From an uncultured Prevotella sp. (lineage in GTDB: Bacteria; Bacteroidota; Bacteroidia; Bacteroidales; Bacteroidaceae), in NCBI GenBank assembly GCA_946403845.1, contig CAMJBL010000004.1, positions 26,170-90,169 on the forward strand: DNA of 64,000 nt, read 5' to 3'. The notes beneath the pieces were generated by a model. That model saw nothing but the letters and a program-made list of their open reading frames with translations. It was not told the origin of the DNA and ran no database searches. The translations under genes and the position numbers were made by a program. Shown piece by piece: positions 5,727 through 47,622 of this stretch; position 1 is the first letter of the stretch, and every line of letters starts with the position of its first letter.

Positions 5727-5728
5727 GA

Positions 5729-21135: not shown

Positions 21136-21246
21136 CTAAAACGGTCCATACCCCATGCAACTCGTGGTCGTGATGGCCGTCAGAAATGCCGTGAGCGCAG
21201 CTACTATCACCTTCACCGCAATCTCAACAATCCGCTTCTTCATCAT
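21136..21246 (-). CDS. Smalltalk-family small membrane peptide (36 aa, absent from the ORF track)
   Basis: MMKKRIVEIAVKVIVAALTAFLTAITTTSCMGYGPF*; AGAAGG upstream; lies downstream of the HU-like gene as is typical for the family. Confidence 0.85.
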   Translation of the reverse strand: MMKKRIVEIAVKVIVAALTAFLTAITTTSCMGYGPF

Positions 21247-22578: not shown

Positions 22579-22791
22579 ATGTACAATCATTACGACCACC
22601 ATGCCACTAGTTTCAACCGTACTGCGCTTGCCCAGCGTTACTTTCCCTATCTCTTGCCCCTCTCTGCCTGGGCCAAGTTCCGCAGATGGCTGCTGACCAA
22701 TCCGCGCCTGAAGCCCATTCTCGCCTCCGGATCGCGCTCCTTCACGCCCGCGCAGGTTGCTTTAATATACAGTGAGATAGGAGAGCCTTGA
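22579..22791 (+). CDS. DUF4248-like small DNA-binding protein
   Basis: NRTALAQRYFP...AWAKFRRWL...RSFTPAQVALIYSEIGEP matches the family pattern; start moved to 22579. Confidence 0.82.
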   Translation: MYNHYDHHATSFNRTALAQRYFPYLLPLSAWAKFRRWLLTNPRLKPILASGSRSFTPAQVALIYSEIGEP

Positions 22792-22897: not shown

Positions 22898-23085
22898 GCG
22901 GTAACGCGATAACACGATAACATTAAGTATTTTGCATTCCACACCCTCTTATTGATTTATATATATTATTATATATATTATAATATATATAATAATATAT
23001 ATAAATATACTTTATCAAAATCATTCCCCACCATAATTACAAACTCATTCAACCCAATGTTATCGCGTTATCGCGTTATCGCCTT
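22898..23085. other. Putative replication origin: 3x GCGATAAC-type iterons / perfect 52-bp A/T palindrome / 3x inverted iterons
   Basis: 22898-22924 GCGGTAACGCGATAACACGATAACATT; palindrome 22955-23006; 23056-23085 AATGTTATCGCGTTATCGCGTTATCGCCTT. Confidence 0.75.
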
Positions 23086-23147: not shown

Positions 23148-23627
23148 TTAGAAGTCAATGACAATACCTGCTGAGAAAATGTACCAATCCCAAGTCACAC
23201 CATCTTTTTTACCGGTCTGATAAACAGCCTCAGCTTCGAGTTTCAGTTTGTCTGTTATATAGTACTCACAACCAGGACCAAAGTTGAAAGCAAGTGCTGA
23301 ATCAGAATAGTCATTAACCTTCCAACCTAGAAGACCAATACCACCAATAGGATAAACTGTAAACTTGTCACCAATGTGGAAAAGATAGTTAAAATTGAGG
23401 TTGGCATTCCAGTAGGAGATGTCATCCTTCTTTAGAAAGTATTTAGCACTAGCTTCACCACGGAGGTTGTCGATAAACTCATACTTTAACTTTGCACCAA
23501 TACCCAATTGGCTGTAATGGTCGTCAGTACCATAGTTGAGGTTTGCACCAACCCCCATCTTACCAGCCTGAGCAAATACACCAATGCTCATCAGCATCAT
23601 AACTGCGATCAAAAATAGTTTTCTCAT
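23148..23627 (-). CDS. Outer membrane beta-barrel (porin family) protein
   Basis: Signal peptide, 8-strand pattern, terminal Phe. Confidence 0.85.
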   Translation of the reverse strand: MRKLFLIAVMMLMSIGVFAQAGKMGVGANLNYGTDDHYSQLGIGAKLKYEFIDNLRGEASAKYFLKKDDISYWNANLNFNYLFHIGDKFTVYPIGGIGLLGWKVNDYSDSALAFNFGPGCEYYITDKLKLEAEAVYQTGKKDGVTWDWYIFSAGIVIDF

Positions 23628-23988
23628 AATGAATTGTTTTAAATGTTAATAATAAAATTGGTTAAAAACTCTTTTCGGTTGCAAATATACAAATAATTAT
23701 AGATAATAACAAATTTTATTGCTTTTTTTCTAAAAAAAATACATTTTCTGTAATAAACGATTCTGAGTTCAGAAGATATATTTGATCAATTCTTATTTAT
23801 AAAATAAGAGTCTTATATCGCTAAAAAGAGTAAAATACATATAAATATATCAGTTTTTCAGGTTTTATTACTTCTGTTTCAATTATTTTTTGTACCTTTG
23901 TACCATATTCTATAGACAATGGGCTTATTTACCCTATAGATCTAGAGTATACTTACTAAAAATATAACGTCAAATTGACATTACTAAG

Positions 23989-24720
23989 ATGAAATATATT
24001 CTCGTTACGGGAGCTTCTAGAGGCATTGGAAGAGCCATCTGTTTAAGATTGGTCTCAATGAATATGCCTATAATAATTAATTTTAATAGCAACCTATCTG
24101 CTGCAGGAGAGACAAAATCTCTTATCGAGGATTTAGGTGGTAAGGCAGAATTGTTACCATTTGATGTTTCAAATAGGTTGGAAGTTGAAAAAGCCATTCA
24201 AAGCTGGGAAGATTCTCACCCAGATGATTATATCTCTATTTTGGTTAACAATGCTGGTATCAGGCGTGATAATATCATGTTTATGATGTCTGACGAAGAC
24301 TGGCATCAGGTTTTAGATACAACGCTTGATGGATTCTTCTACTTAACACGTTGCTTATTAAAACATATGATGCCCCGTAAGCGAGGGGGGAGAATTATAA
24401 ATATTGCATCGTTGTCAGGAGTTAAGGGCTTGCCAGGCCAGGTTAATTACAGTGCTGCAAAAGCTGCCTTAATTGGAGCGACAAAGGCATTGGCTCAAGA
24501 AGTTGCTCCTCGCAATATAACAGTAAATGCGATTGCACCTGGATTTATAGAAACAGATATGACAAAGGATCTGCCTGAGGATGATCTGAAGAAGTTGATT
24601 CCTGTTAGCAGATTCGGGAAACCAGAAGAAGTCGCAGCATTGGTTGCTTTCTTAGCTTCTGATGATGCGTCTTATATCACAGGTGAAGTTATAAATATCA
24701 ATGGAGGTCTTTATACATAA
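23989..24720 (+). CDS. fabG: 3-oxoacyl-ACP reductase (cluster ketoreductase)
   Basis: TGASRGIG, NNAG, YSAAK and PGFIETDM motifs. Confidence 0.92.
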   Translation: MKYILVTGASRGIGRAICLRLVSMNMPIIINFNSNLSAAGETKSLIEDLGGKAELLPFDVSNRLEVEKAIQSWEDSHPDDYISILVNNAGIRRDNIMFMMSDEDWHQVLDTTLDGFFYLTRCLLKHMMPRKRGGRIINIASLSGVKGLPGQVNYSAAKAALIGATKALAQEVAPRNITVNAIAPGFIETDMTKDLPEDDLKKLIPVSRFGKPEEVAALVAFLASDDASYITGEVININGGLYT

Positions 24721-24731
24721 TTTTTTTGTAT

Positions 24732-25616
24732 ATGAAGTATTTTTTGTCGTTTTATTTTTTTATAGTTAGCACATTATTATATGCTCAAAGCTCACAAGTA
24801 AAGGTGACATTGAAAAATGATGTTGTCGTTGTTGGAGAATTGGTGGAGTTTGACCCATTAGATCATGTGACTTTCAAAGTTGCCGGTAAAGAAACTACCG
24901 TTCCGATGACAAACGTGAAATCTGTTGAAACAGATGGGCTAGTGAATAATGGGAATATAGTTTCAGTAGAAACAAATAAAAATGTCTTCCCGATAGGTCA
25001 AGTTGGGTATTATGAGATTACAGACAAGAAGGATTATCCAGATAGTTATTCCTTTACTATTGATGGCCAAACAATAAAAATGAAATTAGTTAGAGGTGGT
25101 TCTTTTAATATGGGATACGATGGAGATGGGAGTCTTGGAATGAAAAGTGAGCCAATACATCAAGTAAACATATCTTCCTATTATATTAGTGAAACTTGTA
25201 TCAATGAAAAAACAGCGAATTCTCTTTTAGGAAAAGAAAAATTTAAAGATAGATATTATGCTGGTATATGGAAGAATGCAAATCTGGTTGTAGAAAAAAT
25301 TGCGAATCAAGTCCAAAAACCATATAGGCTATTAACTGAAGCAGAATGGGAATATGCTTCATTGATGCCATTTGCCGATGATATATTTGGCGTAGATAAA
25401 TATGCTGAATGGTGTTCTGATTTTTTTGCTGAATATACACCATCTATTCAAACAAATCCTAAAGGTCCTGTTACGGGAAATAAACATGTAGTTCGTTCAT
25501 ATAGGATGGGAAAAAACAAATGGGATAGGAGACTAAGCCATCTAAGTGGGTTCACTGGGGATAATTTAACACAAGCTTTTTTTAGAGTTGCAATTAGTGC
25601 AGATGCTATTAAATAG
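24732..25616 (+). CDS. Secreted FGE-sulfatase/SUMF1-domain protein
   Basis: MKLVRGGSFNMG...EPIHQVNISSYYI...YRLLTEAEWEYA...EWCSD. Confidence 0.75.
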   Translation: MKYFLSFYFFIVSTLLYAQSSQVKVTLKNDVVVVGELVEFDPLDHVTFKVAGKETTVPMTNVKSVETDGLVNNGNIVSVETNKNVFPIGQVGYYEITDKKDYPDSYSFTIDGQTIKMKLVRGGSFNMGYDGDGSLGMKSEPIHQVNISSYYISETCINEKTANSLLGKEKFKDRYYAGIWKNANLVVEKIANQVQKPYRLLTEAEWEYASLMPFADDIFGVDKYAEWCSDFFAEYTPSIQTNPKGPVTGNKHVVRSYRMGKNKWDRRLSHLSGFTGDNLTQAFFRVAISADAIK

Positions 25617-25622
25617 ATTATA

Positions 25623-26846
25623 ATGACAAAACGTGTAGTAATAACAGGTATAGGCATTTGGTCTTGCTTAGGAACAGATATAGAAACGGTTAAACAATCT
25701 CTATTTGAGGGTAAATCTGGTATTGGTTTACAACCAGAACGTCTTGAATATGGATATCGCTCAGGGCTTACAGGAATTGTAGAAACGCCAGTTATAACGA
25801 AACAAATGCTTGACAGGCATACCCGCGCAGGAATGTCGGAAGAAGCCCAGTATGCTTATATGGCCAGTCGTCAGGCGTTTGATCAGGCTCTAATTAGTGA
25901 CGAGTATCTTCGTGAAAACGAGGTCGGTTGTATCTTCGGAAATGACTCTTCTGCCAAGCCAGTCATAGAATCTTCGAAGATTATGGATGAAAAGCATGAC
26001 TCGGCTATGCTGGGTTATGGCCTGATCTTTCAGTCAATGAACTCTACGGTGAATATGAACCTCAGCACCATTTTCCATCTGCGAGGTGTAAATTTCACGA
26101 TCAGTGCAGCCTGCGCCAGTGGCAGCCATAGTATTGGCTTGGGTTATATGCTGATCAACCAGGGACTTCAGGATATGGTGCTCTGTGGAGGTGCTCAGGA
26201 GACAAATTACTACTCAATGGCATCGTTTGATGCGCTTGGAGCTTTTTCCGTAAGAATGGACGAACCAACAAAAGCAAGTCGCCCGTTCGACAAAGATCGT
26301 GATGGTTTGATCCCTAGTGGTGGTGCAGCAGCTCTGGTTCTGGAGGATTATGAGCATGCCATTGCCCGTGGCGCCAATATTCTTGCAGAAGTGGTTGGAT
26401 ATGGATTCTCCAGTAACGGAGGAGGAATTTCTGAACCAAGTGACAATGGGAGTGTGATAGCCATGACAAGGGCAATAAAGGATGCAGGCATTGAGCTTGA
26501 TGATATTGATTATATCAATGCTCATGCAACATCCACGCTTCAGGGTGATATGTATGAGGCGATTGCTCTTGATAGAATGTTCAGGGGCCAAAGGGCTTTA
26601 ATCAGTTCTACTAAATCTATGACAGGTCACGAATGTTGGATGGCTGGTGCCAGCGAGATAGTTTATAGCATTATTATGATGCAGAACAATTTCGTGGCTC
26701 CAAATATCAACTTCGAGAATCCTGACGAATATTCTGAGAAGTTAAATCTTACAGCAAAGACCATAGAGACTGAGGTCAATACCGTACTCAGTAATTCTTT
26801 CGGCTTTGGTGGTACAAATAGTGCATTGGTAATAAAACATATATAA
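25623..26846 (+). CDS. Beta-ketoacyl-ACP synthase (FabB/FabF-like KS)
   Basis: SAACAS Cys, NAHATST and TGHECW His residues, SNSFGFGG. Confidence 0.93.
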   Translation: MTKRVVITGIGIWSCLGTDIETVKQSLFEGKSGIGLQPERLEYGYRSGLTGIVETPVITKQMLDRHTRAGMSEEAQYAYMASRQAFDQALISDEYLRENEVGCIFGNDSSAKPVIESSKIMDEKHDSAMLGYGLIFQSMNSTVNMNLSTIFHLRGVNFTISAACASGSHSIGLGYMLINQGLQDMVLCGGAQETNYYSMASFDALGAFSVRMDEPTKASRPFDKDRDGLIPSGGAAALVLEDYEHAIARGANILAEVVGYGFSSNGGGISEPSDNGSVIAMTRAIKDAGIELDDIDYINAHATSTLQGDMYEAIALDRMFRGQRALISSTKSMTGHECWMAGASEIVYSIIMMQNNFVAPNINFENPDEYSEKLNLTAKTIETEVNTVLSNSFGFGGTNSALVIKHI

Positions 26847-26852
26847 GAAAAT

Positions 26853-27401
26853 ATGAGAACGACAACGCTACTAATTCTTTTCCTATTTGCTGCTCTTTAT
26901 ACAACAGCTCAGAGTTTAGATAGAGATATCAATAATCTTGATGGATCAAGAATTCTGGTGACATCGGAAGAAGAATTTTATGATGACGAAACTGTTGGAA
27001 TGACCTATTTAATATCTTCAAATAAAAGGGATACTATAAGAATCATTAATATTACACTAGAAGACTGGGGAAAGATGGAAAAAGGTCGTTCGTTTTTTTT
27101 AAAGTTCAAGGATGGTAGCATCATGGAACTGAAAAACGAGATAGACCAAATAGCCCATCCTGTTTCTGGACATTTTGCAATGTTTGGACCAGCAATGTGC
27201 CTTCAGCCCCAATTCGTGGTAACTAATGAACAATTGGAACAGATAATCTCTAAAGAAGTTATAAAACTCCGTTTTGAACAAGGAGATGATTTGTTGGATA
27301 GAAAGATAAAGAAAAATATTATTTCACGTATAATTAAAAATTGTGTAGAAATACTGGAAGACTCGTCCAGTAAGCAAATTGATAAACTTAAAGGATTTTA
27401 A
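26853..27401 (+). CDS. Secreted hypothetical protein
   Basis: Signal peptide; tight operon spacing. Confidence 0.7.
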   Translation: MRTTTLLILFLFAALYTTAQSLDRDINNLDGSRILVTSEEEFYDDETVGMTYLISSNKRDTIRIINITLEDWGKMEKGRSFFLKFKDGSIMELKNEIDQIAHPVSGHFAMFGPAMCLQPQFVVTNEQLEQIISKEVIKLRFEQGDDLLDRKIKKNIISRIIKNCVEILEDSSSKQIDKLKGF

Positions 27402-27403
27402 TT

Positions 27404-27919
27404 ATGAATTTCAAACGTTTTATTACTTTATCGCTAATGCTGAGCTTCTTGATGGTGGTTCAAGCACAAGTTGTTACAAAGAACTCTCTATCTGTATTAA
27501 AGCCAGGTTCAAAGATCGGATTTGTCTGCGACTTCTCCGAAGCAGTTATCATGGGAATGGACGAAGAAGCTTTTAGTAAATATGAGGAAGACTGGACAAC
27601 GGACAAGCCAACTATAGTGGCAAACTTTATGAATGGCATTAATAATAGACTTGATGACATATTGGTCTTTGGTCAGCTCAAAGACACTCAATACACTTTA
27701 AAAATCTCAGTCAAGCTTGTCAACACAAAAGGATATATGCTCTGTGATGCAGTAATTGTTGATAATGCCGGAAAATCTATTTTTGAAGCCAAACAGGTAA
27801 ATGGTGGAAAGGAACCCCCATTCTTACCAGGAACAAAACTTGCCAAGATGAAGGCTTGGGCTTTGCTAACAGGCCGTGCATTAGGCGGTATTATTAAATC
27901 TGAGTATTTAAATCAATAA
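27404..27919 (+). CDS. Secreted hypothetical protein
   Basis: Signal peptide ending VQA; resembles the next ORF. Confidence 0.72.
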   Translation: MNFKRFITLSLMLSFLMVVQAQVVTKNSLSVLKPGSKIGFVCDFSEAVIMGMDEEAFSKYEEDWTTDKPTIVANFMNGINNRLDDILVFGQLKDTQYTLKISVKLVNTKGYMLCDAVIVDNAGKSIFEAKQVNGGKEPPFLPGTKLAKMKAWALLTGRALGGIIKSEYLNQ

Positions 27920-27935
27920 CTAAAATAAGAAGATT

Positions 27936-28457
27936 ATGAAAAAGTATTTGCTATTATTGTTGGTGATTGTTTTGACCAGTGTAAATTGCATGGCTGGTGG
28001 TGTTAAAGTAAAGGAGGGGAAGGCCTCATTTCTTAAAGAAAACGCAAGTGCCATAGTTGAGTTTGATTTTTCTAAAACAACCTGGGAAGAAGATGAAGAT
28101 TTTAAGACATGGTGTGGCGATCAATATGAAAAGAGAAAGGCTGTGATGCAAAATGCCTTTGTTACGTCTTTTAATGAGAATTCAAAAGGACTCAAAATTA
28201 ATAGTGGAGCTAAAGATGCGAAGTATAAGATTGTTGTAGAAGTAAAAGATTTAGAGCGCCATCAATCTTTTACAGGCATGTGGGGACAAGGTAAAATTAG
28301 TACAACCGGATATATTAAAGTTTTTGAATTATCATCTAATCAAATAATATGTGATATATATATTGATGGATATGGTTCAGGAAAGGATTTTGATATTACT
28401 GATGGTATGGAGAAATGCTATAAAGCTTTAGCCAAGGAAGTCACAAAAGTGAAATAA
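27936..28457 (+). CDS. Secreted hypothetical protein
   Basis: Signal peptide; alpha/beta pattern similar to 27404..27919. Confidence 0.72.
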   Translation: MKKYLLLLLVIVLTSVNCMAGGVKVKEGKASFLKENASAIVEFDFSKTTWEEDEDFKTWCGDQYEKRKAVMQNAFVTSFNENSKGLKINSGAKDAKYKIVVEVKDLERHQSFTGMWGQGKISTTGYIKVFELSSNQIICDIYIDGYGSGKDFDITDGMEKCYKALAKEVTKVK

Positions 28458-28472
28458 TCTTCTTTTTATTCA

Positions 28473-29588
28473 ATGCAATTGTTTCCTGAATTACAAAAGA
28501 AATATACAAAAGATTCTCTGTCAGCCCGAGAAGCTCAAAGGCTGGCAGAGTTCATTGCGTGGGGGCCAGTTGTTTTTCAGGCCTCGCGTATAATGGTCAA
28601 ATGGGGTATCCTTGATTTGATCCGCAATTCCAAGAATGGTTTGACTCGTGAGGAGATATGTAAGGAAACGGGGAAGTCTGACTATGCAATAAAATGTTTA
28701 TTAGAAGCATCCTTGTGTATAGGAATAATCCTTGTTGACTTAGCAACGAATCGTTTTTCTTTGTCAAAGACAGGGTGGTTCTTGCTTAATGATCCTGCCA
28801 CTCGAGTTAATATCGACTTTAATCATGACGTGAATTATGAAGGTTGGTTTAAGCTTGAAGAGTCCCTTTTAAATGGAAAACCAGAAGGCCTGAAGCATTT
28901 CGGACCATGGCCTACCGTTTATGAAGGCCTTTCAAGTCTTCCAGACAAGGTTCAAAAGAGCTGGTTCGGATTTGACCATTTCTATAGTGACTCTTCTTTC
29001 CCAGAGGCTTTGAAGATTATTTTTGACGAGCATCATGTGCAATCATTATATGATGTTGGAGGGAATACGGGAAAGTGGGCATTACAATGTGTTGGCTATA
29101 ACAAGGCAGCAGATGTGACTATTTTGGATTTGCCTCAACAGATTGCAATGATGCAAATGAATGTGAATGGTAAAGAGGGAGCAGAACGTATACATGGATA
29201 TGGTATTAATTTACTTGATTCAAATGCGCAATTCCCTAAGCGTGCTGGTGGTCTTGATGCAATTTGGATGAGTCAGTTCCTGGATTGTTTCAGCATGGAT
29301 GAAATCATCAGCATCTTGAAACGAGCTAAAGAAGCAATGACTCCACAAACAAGGATTTACATCATGGAGACATTGTGGGATAGGCAAAAGTATGAGCCCG
29401 CAGCATTCTGTCTGACAATGACCAGTTTGTATTTTACTGCTATTGCAAATGGTAATTCTAAGATGTACAATACTGAAGATATGCAGCAATGTATAGACAG
29501 GTCAGGCTTGGAAATAGAACAGATCCATGACCATTTAGGACAAGGTCACTCAATAATTGTATGTAAACTCAAACAAACAAATATTTAA
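28473..29588 (+). CDS. SAM-dependent methyltransferase (Methyltransf_2 type) of aryl polyene/flexirubin clusters
   Basis: YDVGGNTG, LDLP and WMSQFLDCF motifs; N-terminal winged-helix dimerisation region. Confidence 0.88.
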   Translation: MQLFPELQKKYTKDSLSAREAQRLAEFIAWGPVVFQASRIMVKWGILDLIRNSKNGLTREEICKETGKSDYAIKCLLEASLCIGIILVDLATNRFSLSKTGWFLLNDPATRVNIDFNHDVNYEGWFKLEESLLNGKPEGLKHFGPWPTVYEGLSSLPDKVQKSWFGFDHFYSDSSFPEALKIIFDEHHVQSLYDVGGNTGKWALQCVGYNKAADVTILDLPQQIAMMQMNVNGKEGAERIHGYGINLLDSNAQFPKRAGGLDAIWMSQFLDCFSMDEIISILKRAKEAMTPQTRIYIMETLWDRQKYEPAAFCLTMTSLYFTAIANGNSKMYNTEDMQQCIDRSGLEIEQIHDHLGQGHSIIVCKLKQTNI

Positions 29589-29592
29589 TAAA

Positions 29593-29835
29593 ATGACAAG
29601 AACAGAAATTGAAGAGAAAGTAAAAGCATTCCTCATTGATGATCTCGAAATTGATGAGGATAAGATTTTTGATGATGCGAAGTTGAAGGAGGATATGGGA
29701 ATTGATAGCCTAGACTTCGTAGACATTGTTGTAATTGTAGAAAAGAACTTTGGCTTTAAGATCAAACCTGAAGAAATGGCAGGTGTAACGACTCTCAGCC
29801 AGTTCTGCGACTATATCGAGAGTAAGGTAGGGTAG
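29593..29835 (+). CDS. Acyl carrier protein
   Basis: DMGIDSLDFVD phosphopantetheine motif; acidic, 80 aa. Confidence 0.93.
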   Translation: MTRTEIEEKVKAFLIDDLEIDEDKIFDDAKLKEDMGIDSLDFVDIVVIVEKNFGFKIKPEEMAGVTTLSQFCDYIESKVG

Positions 29836-29840
29836 GAAAA

Positions 29841-30719
29841 GTGGCTGAAAGAAAGTGGGAAGGCACGACATATGGTAACAGCCTGATGCATAAATGGCTA
29901 ATTTCGCTGTTACGTGTTATAGATATCAGAATTATCTATATCTTTACCTATGTGTTTGTCATTCCACCATGCCTGTTCCGCCCTGGCTTTAAATATATTT
30001 ATCGCTATTTTCGTGAACGCTGGTGTTTTGGTCCATTAAAATCATTCTTTAAGACCTATCAGAATCACTGTTTGTTCAGCCAAGTTGTGATCGACAGGTT
30101 CGCAATGTATGCTGGAAAGCATTTTGATGCTGACATAGATGGCTATGAGTTCTTTCAGCAGTTGGAAAGCGAGCCAGATGCTTTCATCCAATTGAGTTCC
30201 CATATTGGCAACTACGAGATGGCTGGTTATACGTTAGTATCTACCAAGAAGCCATTTAATGCGCTGGTATATTGGGGTGAGAAACAATCTGTCATGGAGA
30301 ATCGTGCAAACATGTTTTCGGATAAGAACATTCGTATGATATCCATTAAGGAAGACATGAGTCATCTGTTCCTCATAGACAATGCGCTTCAAAAAGGCGA
30401 GATTGTCAGTATGCCTGCTGATCGGATCTTTGGATCGAAAAAGAGTGTGAACGAGCGCCTGTTAGGTGCAAACGTAAAATTGCCTTTAGGACCATTTAGT
30501 GTGGCTACTATGCGAGGACTGAATGTCCTGGCGGTAAACGTAATGAAAAGCTCAACAAAGGGGTATACAATTTATGTAAAACCTCTTAGTTACGATAAAC
30601 AGGCCCCTCGAAATATGCAGATAGAACAGTTGGCCCATAGTTATGTGACTGAATTGGAGCGCATCTTAAAATTGTATCCTACACAATGGTATAACTATTA
30701 TGATTTCTGGAATGTATGA
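29841..30719 (+). CDS. LpxL-family (lipid A lauroyl transferase-like) acyltransferase
   Basis: SHIGNYE, MPADR and PTQWYNYYDFW motifs. Confidence 0.88.
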   Translation: MAERKWEGTTYGNSLMHKWLISLLRVIDIRIIYIFTYVFVIPPCLFRPGFKYIYRYFRERWCFGPLKSFFKTYQNHCLFSQVVIDRFAMYAGKHFDADIDGYEFFQQLESEPDAFIQLSSHIGNYEMAGYTLVSTKKPFNALVYWGEKQSVMENRANMFSDKNIRMISIKEDMSHLFLIDNALQKGEIVSMPADRIFGSKKSVNERLLGANVKLPLGPFSVATMRGLNVLAVNVMKSSTKGYTIYVKPLSYDKQAPRNMQIEQLAHSYVTELERILKLYPTQWYNYYDFWNV

Positions 30720-31171
30720 CAAAAGACGCACAAAACTTCTCATCATCGTTTCTTAAGCAGATAGATATTCATAGCCTTCTGCCCCAGCAAGAGCCTTTCG
30801 TTATGATTGGTAGTCTTGTTTATTTCGATGAACGACGTACAATTACAGAAACGACCATTAAAGAAGATATTATTTTTGTTGATGACGGAATGTTCAGCGC
30901 ATCGGGGCTTATTGAGAATATAGCCCAGACTTGTGCTGCCCGCATAGGATTTGTCAATAAGTACATCCTTAAGAAGGGTATTCAGATTGGCTTTATTGGA
31001 GCTATCCGGAACTTGGAACTCTTTCGCCTGCCCAATGTGGGTGAGACGATAACCACTACAATGGACGTTGTCGAAGAGGTTTTTGGTATGACGCTTGCAC
31101 AGGCGAGGGTCAGTTGTGGTGAAGAGACATTGGTCTCGACAGATATTAAAATTGCATTAAAAGAAGGCTAG
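30716..31171 (+). CDS. Hotdog-fold 3-hydroxyacyl-ACP dehydratase (ApeP-like)
   Basis: LLPQQEPFVMI, LIENIAQTCAA and IGFIGAI motifs. Confidence 0.85.
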   Translation: MTKDAQNFSSSFLKQIDIHSLLPQQEPFVMIGSLVYFDERRTITETTIKEDIIFVDDGMFSASGLIENIAQTCAARIGFVNKYILKKGIQIGFIGAIRNLELFRLPNVGETITTTMDVVEEVFGMTLAQARVSCGEETLVSTDIKIALKEG

Positions 31172-31173
31172 GT

Positions 31174-31596
31174 ATGGAGCTAAAAGCATCAAAGGAATTC
31201 GAAATACGATTTAGCGAGGTGGACTCTATGAATGTGGTCTGGCATGGGTCATACATGCTCTATTTTGAAGATGCTCGCGAGGAATTTGGCAAGAAGTTTG
31301 ATCTTACCTATATGGGCTTTTTTGACCATGGTTATTTTGCGCCACTTGTGGAGATGAGTTTTCAGTGGAAGAAGCCTATCAAGTATGGCATGAAACCCAG
31401 AATAGACATTGTATACAGACCAACGGAAGCTGCTAAGATTATCTTTGACTACGAGATTCATGACACCGAGGATGAGAGCCTGATAGCTACTGGCCATAGT
31501 GTTCAGGTTTTTATGGACACCAATTACCAATTGGTTTTGTATAGCCCGGAGTTCTATGATGAATGGCGACAGCGTTGGGGCGTCCTAGAAAAATGA
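31174..31596 (+). CDS. Acyl-CoA/ACP thioesterase (4HBT family)
   Basis: IRFSEVDSMNVVWHGSYMLYFEDARE. Confidence 0.9.
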   Translation: MELKASKEFEIRFSEVDSMNVVWHGSYMLYFEDAREEFGKKFDLTYMGFFDHGYFAPLVEMSFQWKKPIKYGMKPRIDIVYRPTEAAKIIFDYEIHDTEDESLIATGHSVQVFMDTNYQLVLYSPEFYDEWRQRWGVLEK

Positions 31597-33302
31597 GAAG
31601 AAATATGGTATATAGAATAGCTGATAATGTGTTGACGCCATTGGGAACCACTACAATGGCAAACTATGAGGCTCTGAAAGCAGGGCGCTCTGCGCTGGCT
31701 CAATATGCAAGCTATTCTGGAAGAAAGGAAGATGATTTTGTAGCTTCACGATTCAGCGACGAACAAAGAAAAGAACTTATGGTTAGTGGGCTAACATGGT
31801 TTGAGTCGTTGGTATATCATAGCGTTAAAGAAGCTTTGACAAATTGTACGATTGATGTGGCTAGTCATCGCACCTTGCTTGTCGTCAGTACAACAAAGGC
31901 TAATATCGAGAATCTTTCTTCAAACGAATATGACAGGATTCTGCCTGCAGAGTCTGCTAAAAGGATTGCTGATATTCTTGGGATTCAAACTCAACCAATA
32001 GTCATATGCAACGCATGTATATCTGGAGTGGCTGCGATCGTAACTGCTCAACGCTTGTTACTTGCAGAATATTACGACACAGCTATAGTAGTGGGGTGCG
32101 ACGTCGTTAGTCATTTCGTAGTTTCTGGTTTCCAGTCACTCAAAGCAATGTCACCAGAGCCCTGTCGACCATTTGATATTGAACGCATAGGATTAAATCT
32201 TGGTGAAGCAGCTGCAACCTTGATTCTGAGTAATAAAAGAACTCTGAATGATAATTGGCAGATTGTTAATGGAGCTATTCGAAATGATGCTTATCACATC
32301 AGTAGCCCATCGCCCAAAGGGGAGGGGTGTGCCAATGCGATCAAATATGTCACTGAAGGTATAGACCTCCACTCTCTCTCAGCTGTGAATGTTCATGGTA
32401 CAGCCACGATGTATAACGATCAGATGGAGTCAAAAGCAATTGCAGCCTCTGGCTTATCTGAGATACCTATCAATACCCTGAAAGGTTATTTCGGACATAC
32501 GCTTGGCGCCTCAGGAATTCTTGAAACCATCATCACGATGCATTCTGTAGAAGAAGGTGAACTATTGGCCACACGAGGATTTAGCGAGATCGGTGTTTCT
32601 GGTAAAGTGAACATTTCTGCTAATCCTATAAAGATTGCCCCGCATTCTTTTGTGAAGATTATATCAGGTTTTGGAGGCTGCAATGCTGCATTGTATTGCA
32701 CGCTTAAACCAATATCCGATAATGATAGCCCGGTTGCAGGCTCACTTTCTATAGAACATTCTGTGAAGATTACGCCTTCTGGAGTTATGATCGATGGCAG
32801 ACAACTCAATGTTGAGGCTGAAGGTGGCAGTATGCTTACTGAAATATATAAAGGCCAAATAGGATCATACCCTAAATTCTACAAAATGGATAAGCTCTCT
32901 CAATTGGGATTTGTGGCAAGTGAGTTGTTGTTATCAAAAGAGAATCCACGCCAGGAACTATGTTGGGATAGAGCTGTGGTATTGTTTAATCATACTTCAT
33001 CTGTCTGTGTCGATCGTGAATATGAACAGAGTATTACCATAGGCGAAGACTATTTCCCAAGCCCATCTCTATTTGTCTACACTTTGCCAAACATTGTATG
33101 TGGCGAAATCGCCCTTCGTAATGGATATCACGCAGAGACATCCTTCTATATTATGAAGTCGAAGGATGAGGCAATGATGAATAAAGTTATAGAATCAACT
33201 TTTCTTGATAAGACTTTGCAAAGTATTGTTACTGGGTGGATTGATTATCAAGATGATAATACATTTGAAGCGGATATAAAATTATATAAAAAGATAAAAT
33301 AA
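31593..33302 (+). CDS. Beta-ketoacyl synthase fused to a C-terminal inactive KS-like domain
   Basis: NACISG, HGTAT, GHTLG and SGFGG motifs; C-terminal YPKFYKMD...SPSLFVYTLPN; start by ATGA coupling. Confidence 0.88.
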   Translation: MRRNMVYRIADNVLTPLGTTTMANYEALKAGRSALAQYASYSGRKEDDFVASRFSDEQRKELMVSGLTWFESLVYHSVKEALTNCTIDVASHRTLLVVSTTKANIENLSSNEYDRILPAESAKRIADILGIQTQPIVICNACISGVAAIVTAQRLLLAEYYDTAIVVGCDVVSHFVVSGFQSLKAMSPEPCRPFDIERIGLNLGEAAATLILSNKRTLNDNWQIVNGAIRNDAYHISSPSPKGEGCANAIKYVTEGIDLHSLSAVNVHGTATMYNDQMESKAIAASGLSEIPINTLKGYFGHTLGASGILETIITMHSVEEGELLATRGFSEIGVSGKVNISANPIKIAPHSFVKIISGFGGCNAALYCTLKPISDNDSPVAGSLSIEHSVKITPSGVMIDGRQLNVEAEGGSMLTEIYKGQIGSYPKFYKMDKLSQLGFVASELLLSKENPRQELCWDRAVVLFNHTSSVCVDREYEQSITIGEDYFPSPSLFVYTLPNIVCGEIALRNGYHAETSFYIMKSKDEAMMNKVIESTFLDKTLQSIVTGWIDYQDDNTFEADIKLYKKIK

Positions 33303-33559
33303 TGGAAGAATTGATTTTAGAATTAAAGGAAAAGATAATCGAGGCTTTGAATTTGGAGGAAATGACTCCAGAAGATATCGATGCTGATGATGCATTGTTT
33401 GGTGAAGGCCTTGGTTTGGACTCTATTGATGCCTTAGAGCTGATAGTTTTAATAGAAAAGAACTATGGCATCAAGTTGGCAAACCCCTCAGAAGGTAAGG
33501 CCATTTTTAAGAGTGTTCGCACTATTGCAGAATACGTAAACGAACATAGAACAAAGTAA
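33302..33559 (+). CDS. Acyl carrier protein
   Basis: LFGEGLGLDSIDALEL, typical of aryl polyene ACPs. Confidence 0.93.
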   Translation: MEELILELKEKIIEALNLEEMTPEDIDADDALFGEGLGLDSIDALELIVLIEKNYGIKLANPSEGKAIFKSVRTIAEYVNEHRTK

Positions 33560-33563
33560 GCTC

Positions 33564-35336
33564 ATGAAAGAAAATATCGTCATAACCGGTGAAGGTATTG
33601 TCTGTGCTATCGGAATGGATAAGTCATCAGTTCTCGCTTCTCTCAGAGAGAAACGTTTTGGTGTTGGCACAATGAGATACCTTAACTCCGTTCATAAGGA
33701 ATTGCCTGTTGGAGAAGTGCCGATGTCAAATGACGATATGCGTATTCAGCTAGGATTAAAAGATGCTTCCCATATAAACCGCACCACTTTAATGGGTATG
33801 TTGGCAGTTCGTCAGGCATTGGATGATGCTGGAGTCAATAAAGCCCTGGTTAAGGAGAAATCTTTGCGACTGGTACTTGTCTCGGGAACAACTGTTGCTG
33901 GCATGGATATTACAGAGAGTTTCTTTAGTCAGATGGATTATTCTGATGAGGCTCTTAAATATCTGAAATACCATAGTGCAGGCATGAGTACCCGTATGAT
34001 CGCTGATTATTTTAATCTCTTTGCTGAGTATACAACTATTTCTACTGCGTGCTCATCAGCAGCCAATGCCATATTGTTAGGCGCACGTATGTTAGAAAAT
34101 GGGGAGGCTGATATGGTAGTGGCAGGTGGAACAGAGGCTTTATCTGTTTTCCATCTTAATGGGTTTAACTCGCTGATGATACTTGACCATGAGCCATCCC
34201 GTCCGTTTGATGCCACTCGCGCAGGATTAAATTTAGGCGAAGGCGCTGCTTTTGTTGTGTTGGAAACAGCTGCCAATGCAAATCGAAGGGATATCAAGCC
34301 TCATGCCTATCTTGTTGGATATGGTAATGCCTGTGACGCATTCCATCAGACCGCCTCATCGGAGAATGGCGAAGGCGCTTATTTGGCCATGACAGAAGCT
34401 TTGAAAATGGCAGGGTTGAAACCTGCTGATATTCAATATGTTAATGCCCATGGAACAGGTACTCCTAATAATGATTTGTCAGAAAGTGTAGCGTTGAAGC
34501 GTGTATTTGGTGACAGTATGCCCCTGGTCAGCTCTACAAAATCATTTACTGGTCATACCACAAGTGCCTCAGGGAGCATAGAATCTGTCATTAGTTTGTT
34601 GGCCTTGAAATATCAGTTTGTGCCAGCAAATCTGGGATGGTCACAAGCAGCTGAAGATGTCGTCGTTCCGACATTGGGGGAGGATTCTTATCATCTTTGT
34701 AATGTTGTTTGTAATTCCTTTGGTTTTGGAGGAAATGACACATCACTTATATTCTCGTTATCACCCTCTGTTTCTATTTCGACTCCACATTCAACACACG
34801 AAATAAAGGTGCTTTCAAAAGTTGAGATATGTTCTGAGGAGGAATTAGCAGAAATTCGGGATTATGTAAAACCATTAGAGGCCCGACGTATGGGTAAGAT
34901 CATGAAGAGTTCTTTGTTGTCCTCGCTCAAGGCTTTAAAACAGGCAGGTATTGATAAACCTGACGCTATTATCACTGGAACTGCAATGGGATGTTGGGAA
35001 AACTCAGAGCAGTTATTATTCCAACTGAAAAATGAAGGTGAGACTATGCTGAAGCCTACATACTTTATGCAAAGTACTCATAATACAATAAGTAGTAATA
35101 TTGCTATTCGTCTTGGCTGTCATGGGTATAATGTTACCTATACTCAAGATGATGATTCTCTTGATTGGGCTATGCGTGATGCCAAGCAATTGTTAAAAAG
35201 CGGAATGTGTAAAACAGTGCTGGTAGGGTGTCATGATGAGACCACTCCTTTTTATCGACAACTAATGGCGCGATTAGGTTATAACAATCTGCCATCTATA
35301 CACTCTTTAGCTATTGTACTGTCATGTGGAGAATAA
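33564..35336 (+). CDS. Beta-ketoacyl synthase fused to a chain-length-factor-like domain
   Basis: TACSSA, HGTGT, GHTT and NSFGFGG motifs; C-terminal ARRMGK...PTYFMQSTHNT. Confidence 0.88.
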   Translation: MKENIVITGEGIVCAIGMDKSSVLASLREKRFGVGTMRYLNSVHKELPVGEVPMSNDDMRIQLGLKDASHINRTTLMGMLAVRQALDDAGVNKALVKEKSLRLVLVSGTTVAGMDITESFFSQMDYSDEALKYLKYHSAGMSTRMIADYFNLFAEYTTISTACSSAANAILLGARMLENGEADMVVAGGTEALSVFHLNGFNSLMILDHEPSRPFDATRAGLNLGEGAAFVVLETAANANRRDIKPHAYLVGYGNACDAFHQTASSENGEGAYLAMTEALKMAGLKPADIQYVNAHGTGTPNNDLSESVALKRVFGDSMPLVSSTKSFTGHTTSASGSIESVISLLALKYQFVPANLGWSQAAEDVVVPTLGEDSYHLCNVVCNSFGFGGNDTSLIFSLSPSVSISTPHSTHEIKVLSKVEICSEEELAEIRDYVKPLEARRMGKIMKSSLLSSLKALKQAGIDKPDAIITGTAMGCWENSEQLLFQLKNEGETMLKPTYFMQSTHNTISSNIAIRLGCHGYNVTYTQDDDSLDWAMRDAKQLLKSGMCKTVLVGCHDETTPFYRQLMARLGYNNLPSIHSLAIVLSCGE

Positions 35337-35677
35337 TACCATACGCTATTTTACAAAGCATCTTGTTAACAGGTGGTCAAGTTTTCTTAAAATTTGCCTT
35401 GACTCGAATGCCCGCATTTGCTTGGACTCGAGATTTTTGGTTAAGTCTTCTTACCAATTGGTATTTTGCTGCTTGTGGCCTTTTCTTTGGCTTAGCCTCG
35501 TTGCTTTGGATGTATATTGTAAAGGTATTCCCCTTTAGCTCCGCCTATCCAATGGTAAGTCTGAGTTATGTGTTTGGTATGCTGGCTGCCATTCTTTTTT
35601 TTCATGAAGAAGTATCGGTTATAAAGTGGGTTGGGGTGATGTTTATTGTTTTAGGTTGCATGTTAATAGCGAAATGA
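35324..35677 (+). CDS. EamA/SMR-like small membrane transporter (ArnE/F-like)
   Basis: GGQVFLK, SSAYPMVSLSYV and FFHEEV motifs; 4 TM helices. Confidence 0.85.
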   Translation: MWRIIPYAILQSILLTGGQVFLKFALTRMPAFAWTRDFWLSLLTNWYFAACGLFFGLASLLWMYIVKVFPFSSAYPMVSLSYVFGMLAAILFFHEEVSVIKWVGVMFIVLGCMLIAK

Positions 35678-36300
35678 ATATGAAAAAGGGACTCTTTATA
35701 CTATATCTGCTTTTCACCGCTTATTTTACGCTGATGGCGCAACAGAGTGATACTCAGATCAGACAAAAGATCAGCCAAATTGCATCTTCAATAAAGACGA
35801 TGCAGTGTGATTTTATACAGACCAAGCATTTAAAGATGCTTAATGATGATATGGTTTCAAAAGGGCGAATGTATTATCAACAAAGTAATCGTCTGCGCTG
35901 GGAATATACGACACCTTATACCTATACCTTTATAATCAATAATGATAAGGTTTTATTGAAGAATAGTCAACGTAATGATGTTATAGACGTCAACAAAAAT
36001 AAATTGTTTAAGGAGATAGCCCGAATTATGATGAATAGTGTTGTAGGTAGCTGTCTTAATGATGAGAAGAGTTTTAAGAGTAGTATCTCTGTATCGGGAG
36101 GGGAGTGGGTGGCCACCCTTTTACCACAACGCAAGGATATGAAACAGATGTTCCAAAAGATTGTGCTTCATTTTAGCCAGAAACTGGCGATGGTGACACA
36201 AGTAGAACTGATAGAAAAGAATGGCGATAAGACATTTATAGACCTGAAGAATATTAGAACGAATGAGACGATTAGCACTAATATGTTTACTATTCGTTAG
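35674..36300 (+). CDS. LolA-like outer membrane lipoprotein carrier protein
   Basis: CDFIQTKHL...SKGRMYY...LRWEYTTPY...EKNGDKT. Confidence 0.88.
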   Translation: MNMKKGLFILYLLFTAYFTLMAQQSDTQIRQKISQIASSIKTMQCDFIQTKHLKMLNDDMVSKGRMYYQQSNRLRWEYTTPYTYTFIINNDKVLLKNSQRNDVIDVNKNKLFKEIARIMMNSVVGSCLNDEKSFKSSISVSGGEWVATLLPQRKDMKQMFQKIVLHFSQKLAMVTQVELIEKNGDKTFIDLKNIRTNETISTNMFTIR

Positions 36301-36685
36301 CCCATTGTATGCAATTTTGTTGCATGCACAGTCTACGTTCCCCACTAATGAGGGGGAACGCGTCAAGTATAATGCCTATATAGAAATGCCTCGTGCCTAC
36401 ATCAGCGGTATTAGCGTTCTATTGAAAGAAGGTAATGTGATTAAGGGTAGCTTATTCAATGAGTTTGGCATTACAGCTCTTGATTTTACTTATGATCCGA
36501 AACGCCAGAAGGTGAAATTACATAATGTTATTAAGATGATGGATAAATGGTATATCCGTCGTGTGATTCGTAAGGACATTGCTAAAATGATGATATGCCT
36601 TCAAAAAGGCGAAACGCAATATGTGAACGAAAAACGACATATTAACTATCATTTTATACCGATAGAGAATGAAGCTACTAAATAA
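36263..36685 (+). CDS. Secreted hypothetical protein of the cluster
   Basis: Signal peptide; GSLFNEFGITALDF; overlaps both neighbours. Confidence 0.7.
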   Translation: MRRLALICLLFVSPLYAILLHAQSTFPTNEGERVKYNAYIEMPRAYISGISVLLKEGNVIKGSLFNEFGITALDFTYDPKRQKVKLHNVIKMMDKWYIRRVIRKDIAKMMICLQKGETQYVNEKRHINYHFIPIENEATK

Positions 36686-37046
36686 TTTATATAGTATCCG
36701 GTTGAAGGATGTAACAGAATCCTTTGTACGTTATGACATTCGGTTGGATGCCAGTCACTTTATATATCAGGCACATTTCCCCGGAGACCCCATCACGCCT
36801 GGTGTCTGTATCATTCAGATAGCCAAAGAACTGTTAGAAGACCACCTCGGGCGGAATCTCGGAATCCAGATTGTAAAGAATGTGAAGTTCCTGAATGTCA
36901 TATCGCCATTGGAGACGCCTGATATATCTTATACCTTCGAAAAAATAGTGACGGATGATGTTGATAAGACCTATAAAGTCCAGACCCTGATCTTTTCTGA
37001 CGAATTATCAATGGCAAAAATATCTTTTACCTGTAGAAAGCAATGA
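36669..37046 (+). CDS. FabZ/ApeI-like dehydratase
   Basis: HFIYQAHFPGDPITPGVC and NVKFL motifs. Confidence 0.88.
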   Translation: MKLLNNLYSIRLKDVTESFVRYDIRLDASHFIYQAHFPGDPITPGVCIIQIAKELLEDHLGRNLGIQIVKNVKFLNVISPLETPDISYTFEKIVTDDVDKTYKVQTLIFSDELSMAKISFTCRKQ

Positions 37047-38548
37047 CAGAAAGCGACAAAAATAAACAACGCCAGCAGTTACACGACAGAGGTATATGTG
37101 TCGTGATTCCAACATATAATAATGATGGAACGATTGCTACTATTATTGGCGATACACTAAAAGAGTGTTGCGATGTTATTGTTGTTAATGATGGATCTAC
37201 AGATAATACATCGAACATTCTACATTCTATAGAAGGTATAACGATTGTTGAATATGGAAGGAATCGTGGGAAGGGCTATGCATTGAAATGTGGTTTTAAG
37301 CGGGCGCTACAAATGGGGTTTGCCTATGCTATTACGCTCGATGCTGATGGCCAGCATTATCCAAGTGATATTCAGCATTTCTTAGAAGCAAACCAACAAC
37401 ATCCTGGTGCATTGATTATTGGAAGTCGGAAGCTTGATGGTGTAGATCGTTCTAAAGGTAGTAATTTTGCAAACAAGTTTTCAAATTTCTGGTTTTATAT
37501 CCAGACAGGACGCAAATTGCCCGATACCCAGACAGGATATCGTTTGTACCCTCTAAAGAAATTGCATGGTCTTTGTCTGCTTACTTCACGCTATGAGGCA
37601 GAACTTGAGTTACTCGTATTTGCATCATGGCATGGCGTAGAATTGGTGCCAATTAACATTGATGTTTATTATCCACCAAGAGAACAGCGAGTGAGCCATT
37701 TCCGCCCAGGAATGGATTTTGCCCGAATTAGCGTGCTTAATACAGTCTTATGCTTTCTGGCAATCGTCTATGGTTTGCCATTGAGGATTTTCAGATGGTT
37801 AGGCAACTTCTTTAGAACAGCTTACGCCATATTATTTGTGTCGTTTTTTTGTTTCTGTGTTATCACGCCAGCAGTATGGTTATATGTTAAGATTGGTAAG
37901 ATGACAGAGCGGAAGCGTCAGAATTTACATAAAGTTATATACCACTCCATTCGTTTTGTGATGTTGAAACACGGTTTTCCTGGGACGTCATTTACATATA
38001 AAGTGAGTGAAAAAGTAGATTTCTCAAAACCATCTGTTGTAATATGTAACCACCAGTCGCATATTGATTTGGCATGCCAGTTAATTTTTACCCCCAATAT
38101 CATCTTCTTAACAAATCAGTGGGTGTGGCATAATCCGTTGTATGGATTATTAATTCGTAATGCAGAGTTCTATCCTGTAGCAAATGGTATTGATGAATTA
38201 ATGCCTAAGTTACAATCATTAGTAGATAGAGGATATAGTATAGCTGTATATCCGGAGGGACATCGATCAAAAGATTGTCGTATTACTCGATTTCATCAGG
38301 GCGCATTCCATATAGCAGAACAATTAGGACTTGATGTCATTCCAATGTATCTTTATGGGCCAGGTCGGATTCTCCCCCCCAAAACCTATCATTTAAAAAA
38401 GGGACCGTTATATATAGAAGTTGGTGACCCCATTACCCCGAATGATTTAGCATCAATGGGCGACACCAAAGCTCAGGCATCAAAGATGCGCAAGCACTAT
38501 ATAGACAAATATGAACAGATAGCAAATCGTATAGAACAAAATGTCTAA
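37043..38548 (+). CDS. GT2 glycosyltransferase fused to a PlsC-type acyltransferase
   Basis: IPTYNN, VNDGSTD, DADGQH and DTQTGYR; then NHQSHID and YPEG. Confidence 0.9.
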   Translation: MTESDKNKQRQQLHDRGICVVIPTYNNDGTIATIIGDTLKECCDVIVVNDGSTDNTSNILHSIEGITIVEYGRNRGKGYALKCGFKRALQMGFAYAITLDADGQHYPSDIQHFLEANQQHPGALIIGSRKLDGVDRSKGSNFANKFSNFWFYIQTGRKLPDTQTGYRLYPLKKLHGLCLLTSRYEAELELLVFASWHGVELVPINIDVYYPPREQRVSHFRPGMDFARISVLNTVLCFLAIVYGLPLRIFRWLGNFFRTAYAILFVSFFCFCVITPAVWLYVKIGKMTERKRQNLHKVIYHSIRFVMLKHGFPGTSFTYKVSEKVDFSKPSVVICNHQSHIDLACQLIFTPNIIFLTNQWVWHNPLYGLLIRNAEFYPVANGIDELMPKLQSLVDRGYSIAVYPEGHRSKDCRITRFHQGAFHIAEQLGLDVIPMYLYGPGRILPPKTYHLKKGPLYIEVGDPITPNDLASMGDTKAQASKMRKHYIDKYEQIANRIEQNV

Positions 38549-41548: not shown

Positions 41549-42393
41549 TATTCATCCTGTTATTTAATATGCTTTTTACAATGGCATATGCCCAAGTAAA
41601 CATTTGGGAAGGGTCAACAGTTCATAAGCGGGTGGAACTAACTCCATATATTACTGAGCCCCAGCAAACATCAGGGAATTTGACTATTATTGTATGTCCA
41701 GGTGGTAGCTATTTTTGGCATGATATTGAGACAGAGGGGCATGAGGTTGGCCGATGGTTGCAGAATAATGGAATCAATGCCTTTGTATTAAATTATCGTA
41801 CAGCCTACGTTCCTGCGTTTATAACGCATTATCGCTTGATATCTCGAGGTAATCGTTATCCTGATCCACAAGATGACTTATGTCAGGCCATACGCTATGT
41901 CAAGACAAATGCTGAGAAATATCATGTAGATTCATCGAAAATAGGTATAATGGGTTTTTCTGCAGGCGGTCACTTGGCAATGTCAGCTGCAGAATTATTT
42001 GATGGCAAGGATCTTCCAGCTTTTGTTGTGGCAATCTATCCTGTTGTTACGATGATAGAGCCTTGTGTTCACAAACGTTCGCGTAGAGGATTGTTAGGTG
42101 ACTCTAGAGTTGGAAATAAGGAATTACGAGATCTGTTATCATTAGAACGCCATGTTCCTTCGGCCTGTCCTCCTGTTTTCTTAGTTAACTGTATTGATGA
42201 TCCAATTGTGGATTATCGAAATTCCGTACTACTCGACTCTGCATTGACAGCTAATAATATAGAGCATCGATATGTTCAATTTGATACAGGTGGTCATGGC
42301 TTTGGAGTAAGTGATCATAAAGGAACAGTTGAGAGCCGCCAATGGAAATCTATTTTTTTGGAATGGATAGAAAGAATAAAGAAACTAATATAA
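41536..42393 (+). CDS. Secreted alpha/beta hydrolase (esterase/lipase)
   Basis: CPGGSY, GFSAGGH, DDPIV and GGHGFG motifs. Confidence 0.88.
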   Translation: MYRLVFILLFNMLFTMAYAQVNIWEGSTVHKRVELTPYITEPQQTSGNLTIIVCPGGSYFWHDIETEGHEVGRWLQNNGINAFVLNYRTAYVPAFITHYRLISRGNRYPDPQDDLCQAIRYVKTNAEKYHVDSSKIGIMGFSAGGHLAMSAAELFDGKDLPAFVVAIYPVVTMIEPCVHKRSRRGLLGDSRVGNKELRDLLSLERHVPSACPPVFLVNCIDDPIVDYRNSVLLDSALTANNIEHRYVQFDTGGHGFGVSDHKGTVESRQWKSIFLEWIERIKKLI

Positions 42394-42400
42394 AATAGGT

Positions 42401-43531: not shown

Positions 43532-43541
43532 GAGTTAGAAA

Positions 43542-46061: not shown

Positions 46062-46066
46062 TAACG

Positions 46067-46291: not shown

Positions 46292-46292
46292 T

Positions 46293-47612: not shown

Positions 47613-47622
47613 AAGTTACGCA

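What the first reader, a model, noticed from the sequence alone, without database searches (positions are those of the whole stretch)
22898..23085. SaPI-like origin architecture with a perfect 52-bp A/T-only palindrome
Seen: three 8-bp-period GCGATAAC-like units, then ATTTATATATATTATTATATATATTA|TAATATATATAATAATATATATAAAT (22955-23006, perfect palindrome), then three inverted units. The inverted block (23056-23085) matches 59766-59795 at 28/30. Inference: a double-helicase loading site with a melting or cruciform centre, located about 34 kb from its presumed initiator gene. A hairpin-telomere-type resolution site is an alternative, but no protelomerase is visible.
Basis: partly seen in the sequence, partly recalled or inferred. 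Interest (0 to 1): 0.8.

Follow-up and report, generated by a model that had tools for sequence, protein, structure and literature searches.

The report
Private chromosomal replication origins in Prevotella
This mirror-image DNA site is one of about twenty in a rumen Prevotella-type genome, most with their own repeat code, and is likely a replication start point read by a matching primase-helicase encoded 34 kb away; strand bias in the neighbouring host genes suggests that such sites copy the chromosome outwards in place, which would give these bacteria an undescribed, integrase-free way to amplify and likely spread defence and pigment genes.

Summary
The site belongs to a widespread, integrase-less Prevotella cassette: HU-like gene, site (inverted 3x8-bp iterons around an A/T palindrome), 4-37 kb of cargo (here a flexirubin cluster), a BT4734-type primase fused to an MCM-like ATPase and winged helix, a third iteron array after its stop codon, and a wall hydrolase. 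This genome holds 19 such sites. Upstream sites match the post-stop array in 19 of 23 loci (null 4%), and iterons follow the predicted recognition helix, not the helicase core. In conserved host genes on both flanks, GC skew diverges from the cassette like leading strands from an origin and fades over about 10 kb; this survives orthologue pairing. Best reading: a SaPI-like double-helicase origin that fires in the chromosome (0.75). No protelomerase, target-site duplication or circle junction was found. Binding, melting and replication are untested; outward transcription could mimic the skew. The scan noted this cassette type before in other genomes; my look-up found no note on the skew footprint.

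The parts
21136..21246 (-). 36-aa hydrophobic ORF behind the HU-like gene (resembles the 'smalltalk' family; label recalled, not from a call)
   Evidence: a similar ORF read by eye at the same place in L274
21392..22273 (-). HU-HIG family DNA-binding protein, constant left partner of the site
   Evidence: PF18291 E 3.6e-9; an HU gene lies left of the site in all 14 long regions where a site was detected
22579..22791 (+). DUF4248 small protein
   Evidence: PF14053 E 2.2e-10; detected in only 1 of 19 long regions, so optional or diverged
22898..22924 (+). left iteron array, 3 x 8 bp (GCGATAAC-like) ending in CATT, pointing to the core
22955..23006 (.). perfect 52-bp A/T-only palindrome, predicted melting centre; centre 56 bp from the left array, 75 bp from the right
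23056..23085 (-). right iteron array, inverted
23148..50157 (+). cargo: flexirubin-type pigment cluster (first ORF, an outer-membrane protein, on the - strand)
   Evidence: FlxB, FlxJ and LolA2_flexi above NCBIfam cut-offs; Pfam
51426..52463 (+). ORF6N / antirepressor-like gene, also matching PADLOC PDC-S05
54723..57292 (+). five small unnamed ORFs before the replicase; three have homologues before other copies of it in this genome
57296..59767 (+). 823-aa BT4734-type primase-polymerase + MCM-like AAA+ ATPase + C-terminal winged helix; predicted initiator
   Evidence: PF08800 E 1.9e-13; motifs DID86, GLK127, VDE156, Walker A 434, Walker B 524 present; folds
59769..59795 (+). third iteron array straight after the stop codon, 27/27 identical to the left array
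59817..60335 (+). peptidase M15 / endolysin-like wall hydrolase
   Evidence: PF08291 E 3.8e-14; phrog_894 E 3e-26

Best explanation
The site is likely the replication origin of an integrase-less chromosomal cassette, predicted to be bound by the winged helix of the primase-helicase at 57296..59767 and likely to fire in both directions while still in the chromosome. Shown by sequence and calls: three matching iteron arrays, an intact AEP + MCM-like ATPase + winged-helix gene, the same layout in many Prevotella genomes, iterons that change with the predicted recognition helix, and a skew switch across the cassette. Inferred, by analogy with SaPI Reps: one hexamer self-loads at each inverted array, the A/T palindrome melts (perhaps through a cruciform held by the HU-like protein), the fused primase primes, and forks run through the cargo and some kilobases into host DNA. 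The third array would be an accessory looping or titration site rather than a recombination site. Each cassette's own iteron code would keep the many copies of one genome independent.
For: Anatomy: ATPase best matches MCM (the ten best rows are all MCM; best Z 10.3, rmsd 4.5, 275 aligned; SCCmec Cch Z 6.7); C-terminus is a winged helix (Z 8.6, rmsd 3.0, 68 aligned). Post-stop tandem arrays in 108 of 155 homologues against 112 of 1088 other ORF ends. Upstream site cognate in 19 of 23 loci, null 4.0%; in 19 long regions of 10 genomes 14 had a site by filter, 11 of these with a cognate array. Nearest neighbour by the 18-aa helix shares the iteron in 74% of 105 proteins, by the helicase core in 39%, background 4.6%; pairs >=90% alike in the core but <60% in the winged helix have background iteron similarity, 0.47. 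Paralogues C4/C20: 6 differences in residues 251-750, 28 in 751-823, different iterons. Skew at four-fold sites of conserved genes within 7 kb, pointing away minus pointing towards: left 0.28 (0.09-0.47; 15 loci), right 0.37 (0.30-0.44; 90 loci); none of 500 random-point sets exceeded 0.15 on both sides. Paired to orthologues lying away from cassettes: right +0.15 and -0.16, left +0.27. Near-left polarity negative in 12 of 13, near-right positive in 12 of 14 elements. 19 sites of this genome pooled 0.24 (0.17-0.31).
Against: No experiment shows binding or replication. The winged helix and the third array are neighbours, so linkage alone explains part of their co-variation (not the match of the distant site). 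Left 'towards' genes show no significant paired shift (-0.06, interval spans 0); G108a shows no right-hand switch, and the reversal is weak in the 5 elements whose host fork runs leftwards (+0.05). In a blind scan only 13 of 34 divergent skew switches lay within 5 kb of a cassette mark (background 14.7%), and the three strongest did not. Right-flank skew did not depend on distance to the site (0.28 against 0.26). 4 of 23 upstream sites were not cognate and 3 of 14 cassettes lack the third array. Foldseek gave no match at E<=0.001; the full model is of modest quality (pLDDT 60). Related genomes are not independent.
Confidence: 0.75

Rival explanations
1. The left array and the post-stop array are attL/attR-like direct repeats; recombination between them frees a 36.9-kb circle in which the origin sits right behind the replicase gene, as in SaPIs, and the element replicates only as a circle.
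For: 27/27 direct identity in the window; the circle would restore the SaPI order described in PMC9371898; antirepressor-like and lysin-like genes resemble satellites.
Against: Across 32 pairs the post-stop array fits the left arm better in 14, the right (inverted) arm in 15, tie in 3; no site directly behind the gene in 155 loci; HU-like and hydrolase genes are conserved outside the repeats; 4 tyrosine-recombinase matches in the 80%-complete genome, none on a site-bearing contig, a rough integrase profile hit 1 of 19 long regions and 2 of 160 loci; skew extends into host genes outside the repeats.
Confidence: 0.1
2. The arrays are operators for the winged helix (or another protein) controlling divergent transcription, and the skew comes from strong outward transcription.
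For: HU-like and replicase-hydrolase genes are both transcribed outwards, which predicts the same sign of skew; the skew fades from the cassette end rather than from the site; winged-helix matches are mostly transcription factors.
Against: The reader domain is fused to a primase and an MCM-like ATPase; spacing of about 56-60 bp from one array to the palindrome centre recurs in many sites; a hairpin terminator follows the hydrolase gene; near-flank amplitude (0.36-0.50) exceeds the host's own leading-lagging difference of about 0.2; the one primase-less locus tested shows no switch (n=1).
Confidence: 0.08
3. The palindrome is a hairpin-telomere or cruciform resolution site that linearises or releases the element.
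For: Palindromes are kept perfect although their letters differ: 15 of 19 A/T runs of 30 bp or more have arms >=13, against 242 of 3800 shuffles; melting alone would not need symmetry.
Against: No protelomerase family match (PF16684) in 5 of 5 genomes, two of them single-contig, control rang in 1 of 14; sites lie inside contigs with host genes on both sides; some sites have short palindromes (arms 7-12). Template switching by the primase-polymerase at a melted origin could restore symmetry (inference).
Confidence: 0.06

Closest known systems
SaPI/PICI Rep and fused PriRep self-loading helicases with their ori (PMC9371898, passages read)
   Same: Primase + AAA+ helicase + C-terminal winged helix; iterons in opposite orientation on each side of an A/T-rich centre; specificity in the winged helix; MCM-like ATPase as in SaPI Rep2 and SCCmec Cch.
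   Different: SaPI ori lies immediately behind rep; here the full site lies 4-37 kb upstream and only one array follows the gene. Iterons are 8 bp, not 5-6; the core is often a perfect palindrome; no integrase or att sites found; many copies per genome; BT4734-type primase.
Satellite phage P4 replicon, alpha protein with ori1 and crr (details recalled; searches found no paper giving them, PMC9942202 passages only name crr and the origin)
   Same: Primase-helicase-winged-helix initiator; 8-bp iterons at two separate places, one next to the initiator gene.
   Different: Different primase and helicase classes; no capsid-diversion or integrase genes; the second array is missing in 3 of 14 cassettes.
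Bartonella run-off replication origin feeding the BaGTA (PMC5496983, passages read; PMC2697382, listing only)
   Same: A phage-like origin that fires in the chromosome and amplifies neighbouring accessory genes.
   Different: One locus per genome acting over hundreds of kb with a known particle; here up to about 20 sites, a footprint of about 10 kb, unrelated proteins, no particle genes found.
BT4734-like (VirE_N) primase-polymerases, AgaPP with its PriCT-DUF3987 partner (PMC11724360, PMC5862659, passages read)
   Same: Same primase family (PF08800; lysine in motif II); Walker A/B ATPase partner.
   Different: Here fused in one chain with a winged helix; the passages read describe no origin, iterons or cassette of this layout.

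Membership tests
SaPI/PICI-type replicon | iterons in opposite orientation flanking an A/T-rich centre | tested here: met
SaPI/PICI-type replicon | primase plus AAA+ helicase with C-terminal winged helix | tested here: met
   (predicted folds), motifs
SaPI/PICI-type replicon | ori immediately downstream of rep | tested here: not met
   34 kb upstream here; no site directly behind the gene in 155 loci
SaPI/PICI-type replicon | initiator binds and melts the cognate ori | not testable with these tools
   indirect only:
PICI / phage satellite | integrase and att sites | tested here: not met
   no integrase among 50 window ORFs scanned; no target-site duplication at the arrays; genome 80% complete, so a trans-acting enzyme is not excluded
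PICI / phage satellite | helper-phage induction, excision and packaging | not testable with these tools
   no tblastn match in phage or plasmid records; one viral-contig locus, L031, whose neighbours look like host genes by eye
Protelomerase hairpin-telomere site | cognate protelomerase / ResT | tested here: not met
   0 of 5 genomes
Protelomerase hairpin-telomere site | linear hairpin-ended form | not tested
   no read data across the site were obtained
Run-off replication origin (Bartonella type) | replication extends into flanking chromosome | tested here: inconclusive
   compositional footprint present, no direct copy-number evidence
Run-off replication origin (Bartonella type) | linked transfer particle | not tested
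   no capsid family among the window and cassette ORFs scanned; whole genome not searched
BT4734-like AEP family | PF08800 domain with motifs I-III, lysine in motif II | tested here: met

The most novel reading that the evidence does not exclude
Prevotella chromosomes carry a multiplexed set of private, mutually orthogonal origins. Each is switched on by its own primase-MCM-winged-helix protein, amplifies its cargo and about 10 kb of host flank in place, and, with the cassette's wall hydrolase releasing the DNA, is transferred and re-installed by homologous recombination in the flanks: an integrase-free, particle-free transfer system, and at the limit auxiliary MCM-driven origins on a bacterial chromosome.
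Probability: 0.3. Interest if true: 0.9.

Novelty: new variant of a known kind. Interest (0 to 1): 0.72.

Why it matters
Restriction systems and other defence genes of a dominant rumen and gut genus sit in these cassettes, yet no integrase explains how they move or are replaced. An in-place origin offers a mechanism, predicts where strand bias of Prevotella chromosomes breaks, and is directly testable in cultured Xylanibacter ruminicola strains that carry intact copies. The set of over 100 natural helix-iteron pairs is also a ready-made recognition code and a source of compatible replicons for Bacteroidales genetics.

Tried and rejected
Assembly or low-complexity artefact: rejected; the same design with other letters occurs in isolate genomes and palindromes exceed shuffles. 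Plasmid or phage home: no tblastn match among 72,556 plasmid and 50,697 phage records. Pristine empty sites: the G317:C7 allele keeps the hydrolase gene's 3' end and terminator, so it is a deletion remnant; G317:C4 shares a terminator hairpin with both ends of the G321:C3 cassette, one case only. Copy number: contigs of run X1 gave depth 28.5 inside the cassette and 33-37 in the right flank; contig depth is no copy number and the run may be the source sample, so this is no test of inducible amplification. No RNA holder listed. No read data across the site itself. A flanking direct-repeat search beyond the arrays was not run separately; one search listed none among its 20 largest families. Chromosomal inversions between cassettes as the cause of the skew: would give convergent switches as often, but 1 of 32 convergent against 13 of 34 divergent switches lay near marks. 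Looser search for hidden sites at 19 chosen places found weak candidates at 2. Literature: searches found no description of this cassette or site; subscription journals are not covered, PMC1176014 was not held, and no supplements were read, so those of PMC5499826 and PMC5862659 (gene neighbourhoods) may bear on novelty.

Full report
Observation. The palindrome, the two inverted arrays and the 28/30 match are as stated. The left array is also a 27/27 direct copy of a third array that begins two bases after the stop codon of 57296..59767. Shuffle controls put the palindrome and the fold beyond chance.

Context. The genome (G000, 3.0 Mb, 80% complete) is a Prevotella-type organism by inference from its homologues, whose records are mostly rumen Prevotella and Xylanibacter. 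Left of the site lie an HU-HIG gene and DUF4248; right of it a flexirubin cluster, an antirepressor-like gene, small ORFs, the 823-aa gene and a peptidase M15 gene. The same order occurs on contig C20 with a type I restriction system as cargo and a different iteron. I counted 19 sites in the genome; most carry their own repeat, two pairs share one. Of 9 replicase genes or fragments examined, 7 have a post-stop array; by eye 6 of these match a full site, 2 on the same contig.

The protein. PF08800 primase domain with motifs I-III and intact Walker A and B. The predicted ATPase fold matches MCM in the ten best rows (best Z 10.3, rmsd 4.5, 275 aligned; Foldseek weak, best E 3.6e-3), and the last 73 residues fold as a winged helix (Z 8.6). 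This is the anatomy of SaPI self-loading Reps, whose winged helix reads iterons set in opposite directions around an A/T centre (PMC9371898, passages).

The family. Among 160 loci (the best 80 of 431 in genomes and the best 80 of 488 in a partial metagenome scan), 155 had a complete C-terminus; 108 had a post-stop tandem array against 112 of 1088 control ORF ends. With at most 10 kb of flank, 23 loci showed an upstream site and 1 a downstream, non-cognate one; 19 of 23 matched their own array, null 4.0%. In 19 regions of up to 40 kb from 10 genomes, 14 had a site by filter (2 more by eye), always just right of an HU-like gene; 11 of the 14 had a cognate array and 3 none. Cargo in the 83 of 127 ORFs scanned includes type I and III restriction genes, McrBC, AbiEii, antirepressor domains and wall hydrolases.

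Specificity. After keeping 113 of 155 loci with a definable array and removing duplicates (105), the nearest neighbour by residues 780-797 shared the iteron in 74%, by the wing in 65%, by the helicase core in 39%, background 4.6%. Positions 782, 784, 788 and 791 of that helix are among the most variable. L136 and L165 have nearly the window's helix and its iteron. Linkage between helix and third array inflates this test; the match of the distant site is not subject to it.

Mobility. No integrase lies near the cassettes. The third array resembles the inverted arm as often as the direct one (14, 15, 3 ties), so it is not a target-site duplication; the three arrays seem to be homogenised together. 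The same chromosomal spot holds different cassettes in related strains, and a 95% identical replicase region sits at different spots. The close relative G185 has the pigment cluster at the same locus, at 72-80% identity against 80-91% in the flanks, without the HU-site or replicase modules, and G079 lacks the island. How cassettes arrive is therefore open; homologous replacement is my inference.

Evidence of firing in place. On G000 contigs, four-fold-site GC skew of coding strands is about -0.1 on one strand and -0.28 on the other. Around cassettes, genes pointing away look leading-like and genes pointing inwards lagging-like on both sides, with a difference of 0.36 within 3.5 kb falling to 0.13-0.15 at 7-10 kb. 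It holds for genes with a conserved homologue in G000 (left 0.28, right 0.37), for one locus per insertion spot (69 spots, 0.38) and when each gene is paired with its orthologue away from cassettes, except for left inward genes. In 15 cassettes with both flanks, near-left polarity was negative in 12 of 13 scorable and near-right positive in 12 of 14; the five lying on a rightward host fork reversed on the left from +0.07 to -0.17. The window's cassette goes from +0.29 far left to -0.19 near left and +0.22 to +0.25 inside and right. Against: G108a, the weak reversal in leftward-fork cases, the lack of dependence on distance from the site, and 21 of 34 divergent switches without a cassette mark. 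A footprint of this size need not mean frequent firing; error-prone, single-strand-exposing synthesis would do (inference). Outward transcription predicts the same sign and is not excluded.

Mechanism. Most likely two hexamers load through their winged helices on the inverted arrays, melt the palindrome and replicate outwards with the fused primase; the HU-like protein may bend the site or bind a cruciform, and the third array may loop to or titrate against the origin, as recalled for P4 crr (no call). These steps are inferred. The site works like a SaPI origin but is not a member of the PICI family, since origin position and integrase tests failed. It parallels Bartonella run-off replication (PMC5496983, passages) in firing on the chromosome. 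PMC5499826 (passages) reports almost no conserved neighbours for HU-HIG genes; the constant link to the site here differs from that.

Novelty. Ten literature searches found no description (listed under Tried and rejected). Earlier notes of this scan describe the same cassette type in other genomes; a look-up for the skew footprint returned nothing. Verdict: real, a new variant of a known origin type, with indirect evidence of activity in the chromosome; interest 0.72.

Noticed in passing
window 261-452: A second site of the same family with another iteron and a decayed palindrome (arm 7), an HU-like gene just left of the window start and a peptidase M15 remnant at 705-776; no replicase. Skew still diverges there (+0.20 against -0.27). 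G185 has a site with different iterons at the matching locus (L237).
   Followed up: partly
G000 C57:10697-12287; G317:C8:47840-49234: A primase-less helicase-winged-helix gene directly behind a site, with similar short forms in several Xylanibacter genomes; no skew switch at the one locus tested.
   Followed up: partly
window 5672-5753, 16408-16481, 55571-55668, 56910-57022, 61205-61278; 8339-8391, 9248-9295, 21101-21148, 22365-22412; 58337-58375, 60006-60044: Dispersed 7-8-bp tandem repeats between and inside genes; one type lies in frame within both the replicase and the hydrolase gene.
   Followed up: no
G000 C35:6058, C54:5960, C9:21143, C2:102451, C1:20465: Strong divergent skew switches without a cassette mark within 5 kb; could be lost cassettes, other origins, the host origin or codon-bias effects.
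   Followed up: partly
L274:2897-2950 and 9330-9425; L297: Both ends of one cassette and the cassette-free allele share a terminator-like hairpin, a possible insertion target.
   Followed up: partly
L033 (G015:C9): Site and post-stop array of one cassette do not match each other, but each matches a different site of G000 (C42, C26): a likely recombinant or tandem of two cassettes.
   Followed up: no
window 62253-62852: Outer-membrane protein gene 97% identical in G185, where it lies at the other end of the island.
   Followed up: no
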